Below are positions 4,347 to 13,093 of a stretch of DNA of 45,988 bases, piece by piece. The stretch's first letter is position 1, and each line of letters starts with the position of its first letter. Location: the NCBI GenBank assembly GCA_025055265.1, contig JANWXL010000271.1, forward strand, positions 1-45,988. The letters run 5' to 3'. The stretch is from Roseiflexus sp. Its GTDB lineage: Bacteria; Chloroflexota; Chloroflexia; Chloroflexales; Roseiflexaceae. A program made the position numbers and the translations under genes. Under the pieces are notes generated by a model, which was not told the origin of the DNA, ran no database searches, and worked only from the letters and a program-made list of their open reading frames with translations.

Positions 4347-4634
4347 ATGCCTGTTCAGACGACCTACACGCAGGCGCGCGCTCGACTGGCGGCGCTGCTC
4401 GATGAAGTGGTCAACAACCGAGACATTGTCATTATTCAGCGTCGTGGCGGCGAGGATGTCGCTTTGATTGCCGCCGACGAACTGCAGAGCCTGCTCGAAA
4501 CAGTGCATCTGCTCCGTTCGCCAGCGAATGCAGAGCGCTTGCTCGCGGCGCTTGCACGGGCGCGGCAGCGCAGCGGAACGCCGCAATCTGTCGATGACCT
4601 GCGCCGTGAGGTAGGGCTTGCCGAGAACGAGTAA
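4347..4634 (+). CDS. yefM: Type II antitoxin, Phd/YefM family
   Basis: AGGAG then ATG at 4347. TYTQARARLAALLDEV...IIQRRG...ETVHLLRSPANAERL is the YefM signature. Confidence 0.93.
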   Translation: MPVQTTYTQARARLAALLDEVVNNRDIVIIQRRGGEDVALIAADELQSLLETVHLLRSPANAERLLAALARARQRSGTPQSVDDLRREVGLAENE

Positions 4635-4920
4635 GGATCTCCCAACACAGCGAACCCAACGGAACGCTGTGTTTCAACCAGAGTTTCGTGATGATCTGCG
4701 CTACTGGGTTGAGAAGGACAGGCGAACCGCATTGCGCATCCTGACATTGATCGAAGCCGTTATACGCGATCCTCTCACTGGTATTGGCAAGCCGGAACCC
4801 CTCAAGTATCTGGGTGCGAATGTATGGTCACGGCGAATCACGCAAGAACATCGTCTTGTATATGTCGTCAGCGACGACCGAATCGATTTTCTTCAAGCGC
4901 GCTACCACTACACTGATTGA
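4618..4920 (+). CDS. yoeB: Type II toxin, Txe/YoeB family ribosome-dependent mRNase
   Basis: GIGKPEPLKY...WSRRITQEHRLVY...ARYHY. Overlaps the yefM 3' end; exact start uncertain. Confidence 0.93.
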   Translation: MPRTSKDLPTQRTQRNAVFQPEFRDDLRYWVEKDRRTALRILTLIEAVIRDPLTGIGKPEPLKYLGANVWSRRITQEHRLVYVVSDDRIDFLQARYHYTD

Positions 4921-4946
4921 CTCTTCTCTGTCGAACGTGCTATACT
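4917..4946 (+). promoter_or_regulatory. Promoter of the metG leader
   Basis: TTGACT (4917-4922), 18-nt spacer, TATACT (4941-4946) preceded by TGc (extended -10). Confidence 0.7.
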
Positions 4947-4985
4947 CCTGCCGTACCAATTCGTTATGAGAACTCACTGAAAACC

Positions 4986-5087
4986 ATGCAAACTCTGCGT
5001 GACATGCATACCGCCCGCCGCCCCGCTGCAATGTGCGTTTCAGGGATGCGTGCGGCGCCGCCTGCGGTCTGCGTGTCGCCAGGGTAA
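4986..5087 (+). CDS. Putative Met-rich leader peptide (33 aa) of a metG attenuator
   Basis: MQTLRDMHTARRPAAMCVSGMRAAPPAVCVSPG*, with 4 Met and 2 Cys. Lies between the promoter and a terminator and contains an antiterminator strand. No clear SD. Confidence 0.55.
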   Translation: MQTLRDMHTARRPAAMCVSGMRAAPPAVCVSPG

Positions 5088-5100
5088 GCCGATCTGTACG

Positions 5101-5144
5101 ACAAAACGCGGGCCGTGGGCAGCAAAAGCGCCCACGGCTTTTGT
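5101..5144 (+). terminator. Intrinsic terminator (attenuator) upstream of metG
   Basis: Stem GCCGTGGGC (5112-5120) / GCCCACGGC (5130-5138), followed by TTTTGT. Confidence 0.75.
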
Positions 5145-5212
5145 ATTGAGAGTTGCATAATCGTCAGATTTCGCCTATCCTTGCATAGAGCATAGAAAGT
5201 CCGAGGTTCTCT

Positions 5213-6991
5213 ATGCCCGACAACATTCTGGTCGCAGTCGCCTGGCCCTACGCCAACGGTCCGTTTCACGTCGGTCATATTGCGGGCGCTTATTTGCCCG
5301 CCGATGTCTTTGCGCGCTACCATCGCCTGCGCGGGAATCGCACGCTGATGGTCTCCGGTTCCGACTGTCACGGCACGCCAATCACGATTGCCGCCGAGCG
5401 CGAAGGCATCTCGCCGCAGGACGTCATCCGGCGCTACCATCCGACATTCCTCAAAACATTTCAGGCGCTCGGAATTTCGTTCGACCTGTTCACGCAGACC
5501 TATACCGATAATCATTACCGGGTGACGACCGATATGTTCCTGCGGTTGCTGGAAAACGGCTACCTCTACAAAGATACGATGGTTGGCTCGTATTCCGAGA
5601 CGCTGGGACGTTTCCTTCCGGATCGGTTCGTCGAGGGGACTTGCCCGCATTGCGGGTATCCGCGCGCGCGCGGTGATCAGTGCGACAGTTGCGGGCATCT
5701 CCACGATCCGCAGGACTTGATTGCGCCGCGTTCGGTGCTCGATGGCGCGCCGGTCACCTTCCGCGAGACCGAGCATTTCTTCCTTGACCTGGCGAAACTC
5801 GAACCGAAGTTGCGCGCCTGGCTCGAGAGCGTTGATCGGAGTTACTGGCGCGCGAATACGCTGCTCTTCACGCAGAACTGGCTGCGCGAGGGGCTGCGCG
5901 GGCGCGCCATCACCCGCGACCTGGAATGGGGCGTGCCAGTGCCGGTCGATGATCCGGCATTCAAAGATAAGCGCATCTATGTCTGGTTCGATGCGGTGAT
6001 CGGCTATTACTCGGCGTCGATTGAGTGGGCGGAGCGCACCGGGGCGCCAGACGCCTGGAAGGATTGGTGGGTGTGCCTGCCCGATGGCACGGCGCCAGCG
6101 CGGTCGTACTATTTCATCGGCAAAGACAACATTCCCTTCCATACAATCATCTGGCCCGCAATGCTGATTGGCTACGGCAACCTGGCGCTGCCGTATGACG
6201 TGCCCGCCAATGAGTTCCTCAACCTCGAAGGCGACAAGATGAGCACAAGTCGCAACTGGGCGCTGTGGGCGCCGGAGATTGAGGATCGGTATCAACCGGA
6301 TGCCATTCGCTACTACCTGATTGCCAACGGACCGGAGACGCGCGACAGCAACTGGAGCTGGGCGGATTTCGTCCAGCGGGTCAACAGCGAACTGGTGGCG
6401 ACGTGGGGCAATCTGGCGAACCGGGTGCTCAGCATCACCCACCGCAATTTTGGCGTCGTTCCGCAACCGGGCGCATTGACCGACGCTGATCGGCAACTCA
6501 TTGCTGCGACCCAGCAAACGTTCGAGAGTGTGACGGCGCTGCTCGATGGAGTGAAACTGCGTGCAGCGTTGAACGAGGCGATGGCGCTGGCGCAGGCGGC
6601 GAACCAGTATCTCAGCGAACAGGAGCCGTGGAAACTCGTCAAGAGCGACCAAGATCGCGCTGCGACCGTCCTGTTTGTGGCTTTGCGCACGGTCGATACG
6701 CTCAAGGTGCTGTTCTGCCCGTTTTTGCCATTCAGCAGCCAGCGGTTGCACGAACTGCTCGGCTACACCGGAACCATCGCGCCCCAGCCGTATGTTGAAG
6801 AAGCCACAGCGCCGGATGGAACGCCGCGCCTCGTTCTGACTGGCGACTACAGCGCCAGCGCTGGCGCCTGGGGAATCAGCGTGCTTGCGCCAGGGCAACC
6901 GATCCAGCCGCCGACGCCGCTGTTCCAGAAGCTGGATGAAGCGGTCATCACCGAGGAGCTTGCGCGCCTGCACGCAAAGGTGCGTTCGTGA
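5213..6991 (+). CDS. metG: Methionyl-tRNA synthetase
   Basis: PYANG..HVGH (HIGH motif), CPHC...CDSC Zn knuckle, YVWFDA, GKDN, KMSTS (KMSKS motif). Confidence 0.97.
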   Translation: MPDNILVAVAWPYANGPFHVGHIAGAYLPADVFARYHRLRGNRTLMVSGSDCHGTPITIAAEREGISPQDVIRRYHPTFLKTFQALGISFDLFTQTYTDNHYRVTTDMFLRLLENGYLYKDTMVGSYSETLGRFLPDRFVEGTCPHCGYPRARGDQCDSCGHLHDPQDLIAPRSVLDGAPVTFRETEHFFLDLAKLEPKLRAWLESVDRSYWRANTLLFTQNWLREGLRGRAITRDLEWGVPVPVDDPAFKDKRIYVWFDAVIGYYSASIEWAERTGAPDAWKDWWVCLPDGTAPARSYYFIGKDNIPFHTIIWPAMLIGYGNLALPYDVPANEFLNLEGDKMSTSRNWALWAPEIEDRYQPDAIRYYLIANGPETRDSNWSWADFVQRVNSELVATWGNLANRVLSITHRNFGVVPQPGALTDADRQLIAATQQTFESVTALLDGVKLRAALNEAMALAQAANQYLSEQEPWKLVKSDQDRAATVLFVALRTVDTLKVLFCPFLPFSSQRLHELLGYTGTIAPQPYVEEATAPDGTPRLVLTGDYSASAGAWGISVLAPGQPIQPPTPLFQKLDEAVITEELARLHAKVRS

Positions 6992-7440: not shown

Positions 7441-7496
7441 ACGTAGCAGGTGAGAAGGTGAAAGGTTAGGGATTGCAGGCGGATTATCGCAGAGGA

Positions 7497-7867
7497 GCGG
7501 CGGTGCGCCCGGTGACATCGTAGGGGCGCGGCGGCGTGCCGGACGCCACCGTAGGGACGCGGCGGCGGTGCGCCCGGTGACATCGTAGGGGCGCGGCGGT
7601 GCGCCCGGTGACATCGTAGGGGCGCGGCGGCGTGCCGGATGCCATCGTAGGGACGCGGCGGCGTGCCGGATGCCATCGTAGGGGCGCGGCGCCGCTGCGC
7701 CCGACGCCACCGGAGGGGCGCGGCGGCGTGCCGGATGCCATCGTAGGGGCGCGGCGGCGCCGCGCCCGTCGCCCCGGTTGGGGGGGGGCGGGGTGGGGGT
7801 GGCCTTGGTTGGGCGGGGGGGGGGGTGTGCCGGGTGACTTCGTTGGGGCGCGGCGCCGCCGCGCCCG
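7497..7867 (+). repeat. Tandem array of 31/34-bp GTAG-type REP-like units
   Basis: CGTAGGG(G/A)CGCGGCG... units with GTAG at 7520, 7551, 7585, 7616, 7647, 7678 and 7743, and a GGAG variant at 7712. The 3' part degrades into G-runs. Confidence 0.85.
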
Positions 7868-7892
7868 CAGCGGAGACGTTGCACTGATAATT

Positions 7893-8798
7893 ATGCCATT
7901 ATTACACCAAATCACCCCCTATACCGCCTATGTTCCAGGCGCCAATAATCTTGGCGTCATCCTGACAGGCGACGGCGGCGCGATTGCGGTTGATACCGGT
8001 CTCGACAAAGATACCGGGCGCATGGTGCGGCGTGCGCTCGAGGAGGCGGGTCTTCGGTTGTGCGCGATCATCAGCACGCATCACCACGCCGACCATATCG
8101 GCGGCAATGACTATCTCGTGCGCAACCTTCCCGGTGTGGCTGTCTATGCGTCACGGCTCGAAGCGCCCTTCATCGAAAACCCGCTTCTCGAACCGGTTTA
8201 CCTGGCGCTCGGCGCCAGTCCGCCAGCCGCGCTCCGCACCAAATGGCTGATGGCAAAGGGTGTGCCGGTTCATCAGATCATCGACGGCGATACGCTGGAA
8301 ATCGCCGGGGTGACGCTGGAAATTGCGGACCTGCCAGGGCATAGTTTGGGACAGATCGGCGTGGCATTCGACGGCGTGTGCTTTGCAGCGGACGGCTTTT
8401 TTGGACCCGAGGTGCTGGCGAAGCATGGTATCCCGTATGCCCACGATGTTGCCGCGCAGATCGCGTCGCTCGAACGTCTGGCAATGCGAGACGAACGGTT
8501 TTTCCTGCCTGGTCATGGCACATTGACGCCGCGCAGCGATCTGAACGCAACGATCCAGGCAAACCGGCACGCAATTGAGCGTGCCTCGCGTGCTGTGCGT
8601 GACGCGCTCGCCGAACCCGGCGATATCCTGACTATTGCGCGTCGAGTTCAGCAGGCACTGGGACTGACGATCGCCGGATTGCCGCAGTACGCCATTTTTG
8701 TCTCGGCAGTCGCGGCGCATCTCAGCTATCTTGAGGCGCAGGGTGGTGCAACGCTGGTCATGACCAGCGAAGGCGCAGTGTGGCGTGGCGGGTCATGA
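7893..8798 (+). CDS. MBL-fold metallo-hydrolase
   Basis: VDTG, THHHADHIGG, PGHS, AADG and LPGHG motifs. Start set to ATG 7893 because the upstream in-frame part is repeat DNA. Confidence 0.9.
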   Translation: MPLLHQITPYTAYVPGANNLGVILTGDGGAIAVDTGLDKDTGRMVRRALEEAGLRLCAIISTHHHADHIGGNDYLVRNLPGVAVYASRLEAPFIENPLLEPVYLALGASPPAALRTKWLMAKGVPVHQIIDGDTLEIAGVTLEIADLPGHSLGQIGVAFDGVCFAADGFFGPEVLAKHGIPYAHDVAAQIASLERLAMRDERFFLPGHGTLTPRSDLNATIQANRHAIERASRAVRDALAEPGDILTIARRVQQALGLTIAGLPQYAIFVSAVAAHLSYLEAQGGATLVMTSEGAVWRGGS

Positions 8799-10745: not shown

Positions 10746-11675
10746 ATGAAAAGTTTCAGCGACTTCCAGCGACGATTGCAGGCAGGGCAGATCGTCGTCA
10801 CCGGCGAGATTGCGCCGCCGCGCGGCGCATCCCGCGCTGCTGTCGAACGGTTAGCGCTCGGTCTACGCGATGCAGTCGATGCCATCAATCTGACGGATAA
10901 TCAGCGCGGATTGGGGCGCATGTCGGCGCTTGGCGCCGGTATTATCGTCCGTCAACTGGGGCTGGAGCCGATTGTCCAGATGACATGCCAGCATCGCAAC
11001 CGGATCGCGTTGCAGGCGGATGTGTTGAGCGGCGCGGCATGCGGCATCACCAATTTCCTGGCAATGACTGGCGACCACCCGAAGATTGGTGATCATCCCG
11101 ATGCCAAGAATGTGCTGGACCTCAACTCGTTCCAGTTGCTCAAGATGCTGCGCACCATGCGCGATGAGGGAAAGTTTCAATCGGGCGTCGCGTTGACCGA
11201 ACCGCCCCGTTTTTTCCTCGGCGGCGTCGCTAATCCGAATATCGAGCGCGTCGCCCGTCTTGAACGTAAAATTCAGTTTGGCGCTGAGTTCATTCAGACG
11301 CAGATCCTGTTCGATCTTGATCGCTTCCGGCAGTGGATGGCGGATGCACGCGCAGCCGGGTTGCATCAGCAGGCGTACATTCTTGCGGGCGTCATTGTGG
11401 TCAAATCGGCGCAGTCGGCGCGCTTCCTCCGTGACCACCTTCCCGGATCGCGCGTGCCCGAATGGGTCATCGAGCGGATGGAGCGTGCCGATAATCCTGA
11501 AGAGGAGGGCATAACCATCGCTGCAGAACTTGTTCAGGAATTGCTCGGTATCGAAGGAGTGCGCGGCGTGCACATTATGTCGGTCGGATGGACCAAAGCT
11601 ATTCCCCAGGTTGTGGAACGCGCCGGATTGCTGCCACGCCCGCCATTGCCGCCAAACGATCCTGACCAGGAATGA
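10746..11675 (+). CDS. metF: Methylenetetrahydrofolate reductase
   Basis: EIAPP, DAINLTDN, TCQHRN, MTGDHP, GAEFIQTQ, GVHIM. Confidence 0.9.
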   Translation: MKSFSDFQRRLQAGQIVVTGEIAPPRGASRAAVERLALGLRDAVDAINLTDNQRGLGRMSALGAGIIVRQLGLEPIVQMTCQHRNRIALQADVLSGAACGITNFLAMTGDHPKIGDHPDAKNVLDLNSFQLLKMLRTMRDEGKFQSGVALTEPPRFFLGGVANPNIERVARLERKIQFGAEFIQTQILFDLDRFRQWMADARAAGLHQQAYILAGVIVVKSAQSARFLRDHLPGSRVPEWVIERMERADNPEEEGITIAAELVQELLGIEGVRGVHIMSVGWTKAIPQVVERAGLLPRPPLPPNDPDQE

Positions 11676-13093
11676 ATGCGCCTATGATTGTGATGAAATT
11701 CGGTGCAGCGGCGGTGAGCGATGCCAGCCGGATCAATGATCTGGTGCGCATCGTTCGCCATGCTATCGATGAAGGTCAGGCGCTGATTGTCGTCTGTACC
11801 GCCATGCCCGAGGTGACAAACCTGCTGATTGGCGCTGCGCGCGCCGCAGCGCGCGGCCATCTGGCTAACGCCGAGCAGGCGCGCCGTGAACTGTGGCAGC
11901 GCCATCGCGCCCTTGCTGAACGCCTCGTTACTGACGATTGGGAACGTGAGACGCTCTATCACTCCTGGGCAGACCTGCTCAAGTCGTTCGACCGAATCGT
12001 GCGCGCGCTTGCGACGCTGGGCGAACATTCGCCGCGGAGCAGCGATGCGGTTGCCGCTATTGGCGAACGCTTCATTGGTCTGCTGCTGGCGGTGGCGCTG
12101 CGACGCGCAGGCGTTGCAGCGCAGTTGATCGACGGCGCTGAGTTGATCGTCACCGATGAACATTTTGGCAATGCCCGCCCGTTGCCGGACGAAACCGCCA
12201 CCCGCGCGCGCACACGTCTCCTGCCGCTGATTCAGTCGCGCATTGTCCCGGTAGTGACCGGCTATATCGGCGCTACCCGTCAGAACATTACCACCACCCT
12301 GGGGCGCGGCGGCGGCGACTACTCGGCGACCCTGATTGCGGCGGCAATCAATGCCGATGAAGTGGTGATCTGGACTGATGTGGCAGGCATTCTGACAGCG
12401 GATCCGAAGATTGTGCCCGAAGCGCGCACCCTGCCGGAATTGTCGTACATCGAAGCAGCTGAGATCGCCACGCTTGGCGCCGAAGTGCTTCACCCGCGCA
12501 CTCTTACTCCCCTCGCCCATCGCAACATTCCGCTGCACATCCGCAGCCTGGCGCAACCTGATGCGCCAGGCACGCGCGTGGTCGCCGAGCCGCGCGTGTT
12601 GTCTGATACGGCGCGGACCATCATCTCAGCCCCCTCAATCAGCCTTATCGAGATCAACATGAGCCCCCTGGCGGCGGCGGAGCTTGGATGGGCGCCGGAG
12701 CTGGCGATGCGGGTGCTCGCCGAACTGACAAACTGCGGGATTGAAGTTTTGACCTTTGCCCAAAGTTTCAGTGAACGAAGCCTGCTCCTGGCAGTGCGCA
12801 TGTCCGACGTTGAGTACGCATATGAGCGTATTGAAACATGCCTGCTGCCGGAGCGGGAAAACCAGGCGCTCCGCACGCTCAGCCTGCGTTCGCCGGTGGC
12901 GCTGGTAGCAGTACTTAGCGCGCCAGGGAGCGCAAATCTGGCGCCACGCGCACTGGCAGCACTGGCGCGGGTGCCGGCCACGGTGCTGGCAATGGTTCAT
13001 GGCAACGCCTCGCATCACCTCTCCTTCATTGTTCCGGAAGAAGAGATGCAGAGCGTTGTACGCGCGCTGCACCGCGAATTGATGATGGGGTAG
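11672..13093 (+). CDS. Aspartate kinase family protein with C-terminal ACT-like domains
   Basis: [44 protein letters not shown]. Several active-site motifs are atypical. Confidence 0.85.

What the first reader, a model, noticed from the sequence alone, without database searches (positions are those of the whole stretch)
4917..5212. Candidate methionine-sensing leader-peptide attenuator controlling metG
Seen: a near-consensus promoter; a 33-codon uORF (4986-5087) with Met codons at 4986, 5004, 5031 and 5046; and a terminator at 5112-5144. Segment 5057-5074 (GCCGCCTGCGGTCTGCGT), just after the last Met codon, can pair with 5106-5123 (ACGCGGGCCGTGGGCAGC, the terminator 5' arm) at 17 of 18 positions including 4 G-U pairs, so the two structures are mutually exclusive. 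Known: this is trp/his/pheST-type attenuation geometry, whereas Met genes are usually controlled by T-boxes, SAM riboswitches or MetJ. Inference: stalling at Met codons frees the antiterminator and induces MetRS. I do not recall a characterised Met leader-peptide attenuator. Caveats: weak SD, and a mini-ORF MRTH* (4966-4980) lies just upstream.
Basis: partly seen in the sequence, partly recalled or inferred. Interest (0 to 1): 0.8.

Follow-up and report, generated by a model that had tools for sequence, protein, structure and literature searches.

The report
Methionine-codon attenuator controlling metG
In front of the gene for the enzyme that loads methionine onto tRNA lies a short methionine-rich reading frame followed by a transcription stop signal, conserved across many Chloroflexota, which likely lets a ribosome stalled for lack of methionyl-tRNA switch the gene up, a classic type of switch not found described for this gene.

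Summary
Observation confirmed: promoter, 33-codon leader ORF with four Met codons, 17/18-pair antiterminator and terminator lie as stated before metG in a Roseiflexus-like genome. No Rfam T-box or SAM match.

Alone the leader is unremarkable (3 internal Met); conservation makes the case. All 9 same-genus genomes with an intact leader keep a Met-rich ORF. 12 of 19 sampled genera of the family, and some Anaerolineae, carry divergent versions. ATG is the most enriched in-frame triplet (z 9.2). In a later metagenome set 15 of 22 metG-leader terminators had at least 3 in-frame Met codons, against 12 of 401 genome-wide. Antiterminator and terminator both show compensatory changes. Folding switches to termination just after the last Met codon.

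Best reading: a classical ribosome-mediated attenuator sensing Met-tRNA (0.85). Translation and regulation are untested. The leader has no Shine-Dalgarno in this genus, and the antiterminator is weak in several genera.

Added here: a conserved second promoter-like element after the terminator, and a second metG leader type with a conserved peptide in other Chloroflexales.

No published metG case was found; closest is an untested Streptomyces metL. This scan reported the same design at least 8 times on other Chloroflexota DNA.

The parts
4347..4920 (+). yefM-yoeB toxin-antitoxin pair, upstream neighbour, not part of the element; the yoeB stop codon overlaps the -35 box
   Evidence: NCBIfam hits; yoeB found upstream in 8 of 27 leader-bearing loci with long flanks, all in this genus
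4917..4946 (+). P1, sigma70-type promoter (-35 4917-4922, TG 4938-4939, -10 4941-4946); start inferred near 4953
   Evidence: same boxes in 9 of 9 same-genus leaders, promoter-like boxes in several other genera
4966..4980 (+). 4-codon mini-ORF, probably incidental
   Evidence: present in 2 of 10 same-genus-type leaders
4986..5087 (+). leader ORF, 33 codons, Met at codons 1, 7, 16, 21; no Shine-Dalgarno motif
   Evidence: homologous ORFs of 90-102 nt in 9 of 9 same-genus leaders, while flanking distances vary by single bases
4992..5014 (+). segment 1, predicted to pair with 5064-5085 (protector hairpin 1:2) and so to mask the antiterminator
   Evidence: folding only:
5057..5078 (+). segment 2, antiterminator 5' strand; 5057-5074 pairs with 5106-5123, 5075-5078 with 5099-5102
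   Evidence: -36.8 kcal/mol; covariation
5110..5147 (+). intrinsic terminator (stem 5110-5123 with 5128-5140, T-rich tail from 5139)
   Evidence: 98.8% of cells paired, 4 of 9 pairs with change on both sides in 19 leaders
5153..5181 (+). P2, predicted second promoter after the terminator (-35-like 5153-5158, 17 nt, -10-like 5176-5181)
   Evidence: same pattern in 23 of 90 Chloroflexales metG leaders, 10 of 10 in this genus; 0.001 expected per 330 nt (pattern defined after seeing these loci)
5203..5206 (+). Shine-Dalgarno motif of metG
   Evidence: sequence
5213..6991 (+). metG, methionyl-tRNA synthetase, 592 aa

Best explanation
The metG leader holds a conserved Met-rich short ORF, a terminator and a competing pairing, and is likely a ribosome-mediated transcription attenuator that reads the supply of charged elongator Met-tRNA. 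Shown: the parts, their conservation, the in-frame Met enrichment and the compensatory changes. Predicted by folding: a ribosome held at Met7, Met16 or (marginally) Met21 covers segment 1 and leaves segment 2 free to pair with the terminator's 5' arm, so RNA polymerase would read into metG; a ribosome that has passed codon 22-24 covers segment 2 and the terminator forms. Inferred: the ORF is translated in step with transcription, and low Met-tRNA charging therefore raises MetRS. Also inferred: the second promoter-like element after the terminator gives a basal level, so the attenuator adds expression rather than acting as an on/off gate.
For: Same genus: 9 of 9 intact leaders keep the ORF with 3-6 internal Met; lengths 90, 93, 96, 99, 102 nt between homologous start and stop, while distances outside the ORF vary by 1 nt. 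Family: hairpin-plus-leader seen in 36 of 49 loci, 12 of 19 genera (hand-picked). 15 group representatives: ATG is the top of 64 triplets (z 9.2, 0 of 1000 shuffles); 68 of 79 ATGs share one frame (null maximum 56); SD-like motif before 10 of 15 leader starts. Later metagenome set: 15 of 22 terminators carry at least 3 in-frame ATG closed by a stop, against 12 of 401 terminators genome-wide in G000. Antiterminator: 85.7% of cells paired against 33-44% when slid, 6 of 17 pairs changed on both sides; RNAalifold recovers the register. In 32 of 44 leaders all Met codons lie before the best duplex with the terminator arm. Window switch: P(terminator) at most 0.02 for codons 4-21 and at least 0.94 from codon 23 at 37 C; switch point stable over footprints of 6-12 nt.
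Against: No data on translation, RNA ends or response; the RNA runs are contigs only. No SD motif before the leader start in this genus. The best duplex beats shuffles at p<0.05 in only 10 of 44 leaders (3 of 15 representatives) and is unclear in five genera and in Anaerolineae; at equilibrium the terminator wins at every ribosome position in many of those. 5 of 9 same-genus leaders have a Met codon inside segment 2, where stalling would favour termination. With a 14-nt footprint Met21 no longer antiterminates. Without a ribosome the outcome depends on kinetics: 2:3 is favoured at transcript ends 5123-5130, 1:2 plus terminator at 5147. Some ATG conservation in this genus may come from the self-complementary 1:2 pairing. 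No synonymous bias in the same-genus ORF (two rows were mis-anchored for the 5' test). Cys is also enriched (21 of 397 codons). Relatives are not independent, and sets and thresholds were chosen after seeing the first loci.
Confidence: 0.85

Rival explanations
1. The leader is translated but mainly reads initiation (fMet-tRNA, one-carbon status) or general ribosome speed: the ATG cluster would serve as alternative start sites, and Cys codons could add a sulfur signal.
For: No SD at the first ATG in this genus; several in-frame ATGs could start translation; Cys 4.7-fold over the ORF background; an initiation-sensing uORF was proposed for Streptococcus fthC (PMC11109978, passages).
Against: 10 of 15 representatives have an SD-like motif before an upstream start, with the Met run internal. 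Slow initiation would leave 1:2 plus terminator in the full-length fold, which would lower MetRS when Met is short.
Confidence: 0.07
2. An untranslated RNA switch (unknown riboswitch, tRNA-binding element, or MetRS binding its own mRNA) uses the same alternative helices, and the ATGs are structural.
For: Both helices covary; in this genus the conserved Met7 context pairs with segment 2; no synonymous signal.
Against: Leader sequences of different genera share little beyond in-frame ATGs and a stop 13-57 nt before the hairpin in 44 of 45; length changes keep the frame; no Rfam match; T-box and SAM models do find other sites in this genome.
Confidence: 0.05
3. The hairpin is a constitutive terminator that ends the upstream yefM-yoeB transcript or a small RNA, and metG is transcribed only from P2.
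For: No other terminator is evident between yoeB and the leader; P2 is conserved.
Against: yoeB is upstream in only 8 of 27 leader-bearing loci with long flanks; it does not explain the Met enrichment or the covarying antiterminator; in genus g26 and Anaerolineae the terminator lies about 30-120 nt before metG in most leaders and the P2 pattern was not found in g26.
Confidence: 0.03

Closest known systems
Classical ribosome-mediated attenuators (E. coli trpL, hisL, thrL, leuL; pheM-pheST for a synthetase)
   Same: Short ORF with codons of the cognate amino acid, 1:2 / 2:3 / 3:4 alternative helices, intrinsic terminator (scheme read in PMC1183508, passages; pheM-pheST recalled).
   Different: Amino acid is Met and target is MetRS. 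A 2013 survey lists only His, Leu, Thr, Trp (Rfam) plus Ile/Val and Phe attenuators (PMC3766115, passages). Met is also the initiating residue, so the switch needs initiator tRNA to stay charged while elongator tRNA empties (inference).
Streptomyces lividans metL upstream of metNIQ (PMC8079986)
   Same: Putative Met-dependent leader peptide, 29 aa, Met codons near its end (passages).
   Different: Precedes a Met transporter, is leaderless, lacks a typical intrinsic terminator by the authors' account; the passages seen give no functional test or comparative analysis.
uORFC-8-2 motif upstream of cysS in Rhodobacterales (PMC8632094)
   Same: Predicted leader-peptide attenuator of an aminoacyl-tRNA synthetase found by comparative genomics, with cognate codons and terminator (passages).
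   Different: Two tandem Cys codons, other phylum, other gene.
T-box (RF00230) and SAM-I riboswitch (RF00162)
   Same: Control Met-related or synthetase genes by premature termination; both models find sites elsewhere in this genome (T-box hits below gathering score).
   Different: Neither matches this leader or 20 related leaders; they need no leader translation.
E. coli metG leader (two promoters with a terminator between them; recalled, not retrieved)
   Same: Upstream attenuated promoter plus downstream promoter.
   Different: As recalled, no Met-codon leader peptide was described there.

Membership tests
Classical ribosome-mediated attenuator | Short leader ORF enriched in codons of one amino acid | tested here: met
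   54 Met of 397 internal codons in 15 representatives; ATG top triplet, z 9.2; weak in the window alone
Classical ribosome-mediated attenuator | Downstream gene makes or uses that amino acid | tested here: met
   metG
Classical ribosome-mediated attenuator | Intrinsic terminator between leader ORF and gene | tested here: met
   predicted hairpin plus T tail, covariation; actual RNA 3' end not seen
Classical ribosome-mediated attenuator | Antiterminator exclusive with the terminator, starting 3' of the control codons | tested here: met
   met for the window and the 19-leader alignment; inconclusive for five genera and Anaerolineae
Classical ribosome-mediated attenuator | Protector/pause hairpin 1:2 | tested here: inconclusive
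   predicted in the window; covariation of 1:2 was not counted; pausing cannot be shown here
Classical ribosome-mediated attenuator | Leader ORF is translated in vivo | not testable with these tools
   indirect only: frame-preserving length changes, SD-like motif in 10 of 15 groups but not this genus
Classical ribosome-mediated attenuator | Read-through rises on starvation for the amino acid and depends on the control codons | not testable with these tools
   needs reporter or Term-seq data
T-box riboswitch | Match to RF00230 (stem I specifier, T-box bulge) | tested here: not met
   no match at E<=10 in 4500-5500; three T-box-like hits elsewhere in G000, none here
SAM riboswitches | Match to a SAM aptamer family in Rfam | tested here: not met
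   none in the leader; two SAM-I hits elsewhere in G000
Arrest-peptide leaders (TnaC type) | Peptide sequence conserved with synonymous bias | tested here: not met
   no synonymous bias in same-genus ORFs; peptides of other genera differ. Met instead by the second leader type

The most novel reading that the evidence does not exclude
Chloroflexota control MetRS through the ribosome in two interchangeable ways: this Met-codon attenuator, and a second leader (seen in 36 of 90 Chloroflexales loci, tandem with the first in 3) whose conserved Trp-rich peptide ends at a single Met codon at the foot of a hairpin and could be a Met- or SAM-responsive arrest peptide. Together they would show that Met, the initiating amino acid, can be sensed at elongation, and give a natural reporter for separate charging of initiator and elongator Met-tRNA.
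Probability: 0.4. Interest if true: 0.8.

Novelty: new variant of a known kind. Interest (0 to 1): 0.62.

Why it matters
Leader-peptide attenuation is established for a handful of amino acids; Met genes are usually assigned to SAM riboswitches, T-boxes or repressors (own knowledge; consistent). Met is a hard case because the leader must initiate with Met while stalling at internal Met codons. A conserved Met attenuator on metG would make it testable whether initiator tRNA stays charged while elongator tRNA empties, as selective-charging theory would require (theory for isoacceptors in PMC1183508; its use for Met is my inference). It would also fill in how Chloroflexota regulate a synthetase that has no T-box here, and add an RNA family absent from Rfam 15.

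Tried and rejected
Rfam scan of the leader: two chance hits, E 0.68 and 0.98; 20 related loci: a tRNA and two weak hits.

Own-genome BLAST: no second copy of the leader. Unsupervised scan for amino-acid-rich uORFs before terminators in G000 was dominated by noise and did not rank this leader highly. Seven other synthetase-like genes in G000 showed no comparable leader by eye, so no internal positive control was obtained. The other genome-wide Met-cluster hits had no evident link to Met genes on inspection (not annotated).

RNA runs: contigs X1 and X2 cover the leader and the start of metG in one piece each, but show no ends, strand or level, and DNA carry-over is not excluded; not used as evidence.

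Equilibrium footprint folding failed to show a switch in many genera. Synonymous-bias test on same-genus ORFs was negative. The mini-ORF as a needed part was rejected (2 of 10). MetG tree (68 sequences; close duplicates and 30 Ktedonobacteria/Dehalococcoidia-rich rows left out, midpoint root): both leader types are interleaved in Chloroflexales and the Anaerolineae leaders sit on a separate branch; common origin against convergence was not tested.

Literature: searches found no Met leader for metG; one search found nothing I read on Met selective charging. Lopatovskaya 2010 (Chloroflexi attenuators) is not held; its gene list, as I recall it, lacks metG. Supplements of PMC11109978 could not be read and might list such a motif; one supplement of PMC8632094 had no hit.

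Full report
Observation. The window is contig C505 of G000. The simple terminator scan missed the hairpin. Taken alone the Met content is weak (3 internal Met, p 0.019, one of 298 candidates).

Known RNA families. No Rfam family fits the leader (two chance hits) or 20 related leader loci. The same genome has two SAM-I matches and three sub-threshold T-box matches at other places, so the models work here and do not hit metG.

Conservation. MetG was found in 152 of 167 genomes of the order. I fetched upstream DNA for 90 of them, plus 80 named genome loci and 80 metagenome loci. In the same genus, 9 of 10 genomes have the leader intact on the contig; all 9 keep P1, an ORF with 3-6 internal Met codons and the terminator. 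The ORF measures 90, 93, 96, 99 or 102 nt between homologous start and stop, while promoter-to-start (38-40 nt) and stop-to-hairpin (24-25 nt) distances vary by single bases. One start is GTG. The window's leader has the fewest Met codons of the nine. In the family, a hand-picked set of 36 of 49 loci (12 of 19 genera) has a hairpin with a leader; one of these (L044) has no proper Met-rich ORF, two (L016, L044) lack a T tract, and two have only 2 in-frame Met. Eight Anaerolineae/Thermoflexia loci carry Met runs before different terminators. None was picked in the other three families of the order (0 of 41).

Is the Met signal chance? With one representative for each of 15 groups, ATG is the most enriched of 64 triplets in the 120 nt before the hairpin (z 9.2; 0 of 1000 dinucleotide shuffles), and 68 of 79 ATGs share one frame (null mean 43.6, maximum 56 in 100,000). 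Internal Met is 54 of 397 codons; Cys is 21 of 397 (frame chosen by ATG majority). These sets were picked after seeing them, so I applied a fixed detector to the metagenome loci fetched later: of 71 with at least 300 nt upstream, 20 had a strong terminator; 15 of 22 terminators (14 loci) had at least 3 in-frame ATG closed by a stop. The same detector gave 33 of 47 terminators in 89 order loci, 11 of 17 in 77 named loci (five of these are family-level loci, four of them duplicates), and 12 of 401 genome-wide in G000, the window's own included. Several metagenome hits are near-copies of earlier loci, so this set is only partly independent.

Structure. The terminator is paired in 98.8%, with 4 of 9. 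RNAalifold on 17 leaders cut before the terminator's 3' arm returns the same register, 5 of 9 pairs changed on both sides. These controls do not correct for kinship, and the register came from the window. Across 44 leaders the best duplex with the terminator's 5' arm lies after all Met codons in 32, but beats shuffles at p<0.05 in only 10 (3 of 15 representatives); it is unclear in five genera and in Anaerolineae.

Modelled switch. Folding the window RNA downstream of a ribosome footprint gives P(terminator) at most 0.02 for A-site codons 4-21 and at least 0.94 from codon 23 at 37 C, and much the same at 55 C. Footprints of 6-12 nt keep the switch at codons 22-24; at 14 nt Met21 no longer antiterminates, Met7 and Met16 still do. 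With no ribosome, 1:2 forms first, 2:3 is favoured at intermediate lengths and 1:2 plus terminator at full length, so the default depends on kinetics. In many other genera the equilibrium model gives termination throughout, which is either a limit of equilibrium folding or a sign of weaker switches.

After the terminator lies a -35-like box, 17 nt and a -10-like box (5153-5181). The pattern occurs in 23 of 90 Chloroflexales leaders, in 10 of 10 of this genus with fixed boxes and a variable spacer, and in loci with no attenuator; 0.001 matches are expected per 330 nt (pattern defined after inspection). I read it as a second promoter giving basal metG expression (inference).

Upstream genes. A yefM-yoeB pair ends at the P1 -35 box, but yoeB is upstream in only 8 of 27 leader-bearing loci with long flanks, so the terminator is not tied to it.

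Expression. Two metatranscriptome contig sets cover the leader and the start of metG; contigs give no ends, strand or level, so they are not evidence for attenuation.

Mechanism. Most likely a classical attenuator: coupled translation of the leader, stalling at internal Met codons when charged elongator Met-tRNA is short, 2:3 pairing, read-through to metG (0.85). Shown: parts, conservation, Met bias, covariation. Predicted: the fold switch. Inferred: translation, stalling, response. The main weaknesses are the missing SD in this genus (SD-like in 10 of 15 groups), a Met codon inside segment 2 in 5 of 9 same-genus leaders and no functional data. The lack of synonymous bias fits a peptide with no function of its own but gives no support.

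Second leader type. 36 of the 90 Chloroflexales loci (11 of 49, 10 of 12, 4 of 4 and 11 of 25 by family) have a different metG leader: one Met codon at the foot of a short GC hairpin followed by a C/U-rich tail. The 13 codons before the Met vary mostly at third positions (synonymous share 0.39 in frame against 0.15 and 0.11; 25 rows) and encode a Trp-rich consensus. It lies downstream of the Met-rich attenuator in three genomes, and the hairpin form occurs before related metG genes in two Terriglobia loci and 11 of 71 metagenome loci. It is absent from the window, and the tighter motif was not found in G000. Its mechanism is open.

Comparison and novelty. It works like trpL/hisL/pheM-type attenuators and meets every membership feature testable from sequence except the inconclusive 1:2 helix; translation and response are untested. 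Nine literature searches found no Met leader for metG. Read as passages: PMC4833913, PMC2965389, PMC3766115, PMC8079986 (putative metL before metNIQ), PMC1183508, PMC2494555, PMC8632094 (one supplement searched), PMC11109978 (supplement unreadable). Lopatovskaya 2010 is not held, and most subscription papers are outside the library. This scan's index holds at least 8 earlier AI reports of the same design on other Chloroflexota DNA, several named Anaerolineales (seen after my own analysis; unchecked notes, not independent support); none was listed for look-alikes of this stretch or for the second leader type.

Verdict. Real, conserved, and probably a Met-tRNA-sensing leader-peptide attenuator: a new variant of a known kind. 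Interest 0.62.

Noticed in passing
L012, L014, L015, L020, L023, L024, L027, L030, L039, L041-L043, L045-L048, L067-L071, L074-L078, L082, L085-L088, L092-L094, L097 (about 105-445 nt before metG): Second metG leader type: conserved Trp-rich peptide with synonymous bias ending at one Met codon at the foot of a GC hairpin, then a C/U-rich tail; possible arrest-peptide or Rho-linked attenuator.
   Followed up: partly
L014, L043, L015, L198: Both leader types in tandem before metG: Met-rich attenuator first, second type next.
   Followed up: partly
L104, L105, L203, L207-L209, L211, L214, L215, L217, L218: Terriglobia and metagenome loci with a Chloroflexales-like MetG carry the Met-plus-hairpin leader without the Trp-rich part, often reading Met-Ala-Gly/Val-Pro-Pro-Pro; suggests the leader travelled with the gene.
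   Followed up: partly
window 5153-5181: Conserved second promoter-like element after the terminator, also in loci with no attenuator (L049-L051).
   Followed up: partly
window 5034-5036 and 5070-5072; related leaders: Cys codons are over-represented in the Met-rich leaders (21 of 397); co-sensing or a by-product of pairing is unresolved.
   Followed up: partly
window 4347-4920: yefM-yoeB pair directly upstream; in relatives it is intact, partial (L003, L005, L006) or absent (L010).
   Followed up: partly
L007 (G007:C485): About 120 extra bases between the terminator and the P2 element in one same-genus genome.
   Followed up: no
window about 7480-7900: Repeated GC-rich sequence between genes, seen as repeating peptide motifs in minus-strand ORFs.
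   Followed up: no
window 10746-13093: metF-like and aspartate kinase genes 4 kb downstream of metG; their leader was not examined.
   Followed up: no
G000:C199:8646-8827, C110:23-159, C602:18208-18464, C417:2465-2727, C77:2831-3061: Two SAM-I riboswitches, before genes that look like metY and metH by their N-termini (names recalled), and three T-box-like elements below the gathering score.
   Followed up: no
L075-L078: In this family the second leader type is followed by a separate strong terminator 17-42 nt before metG.
   Followed up: no
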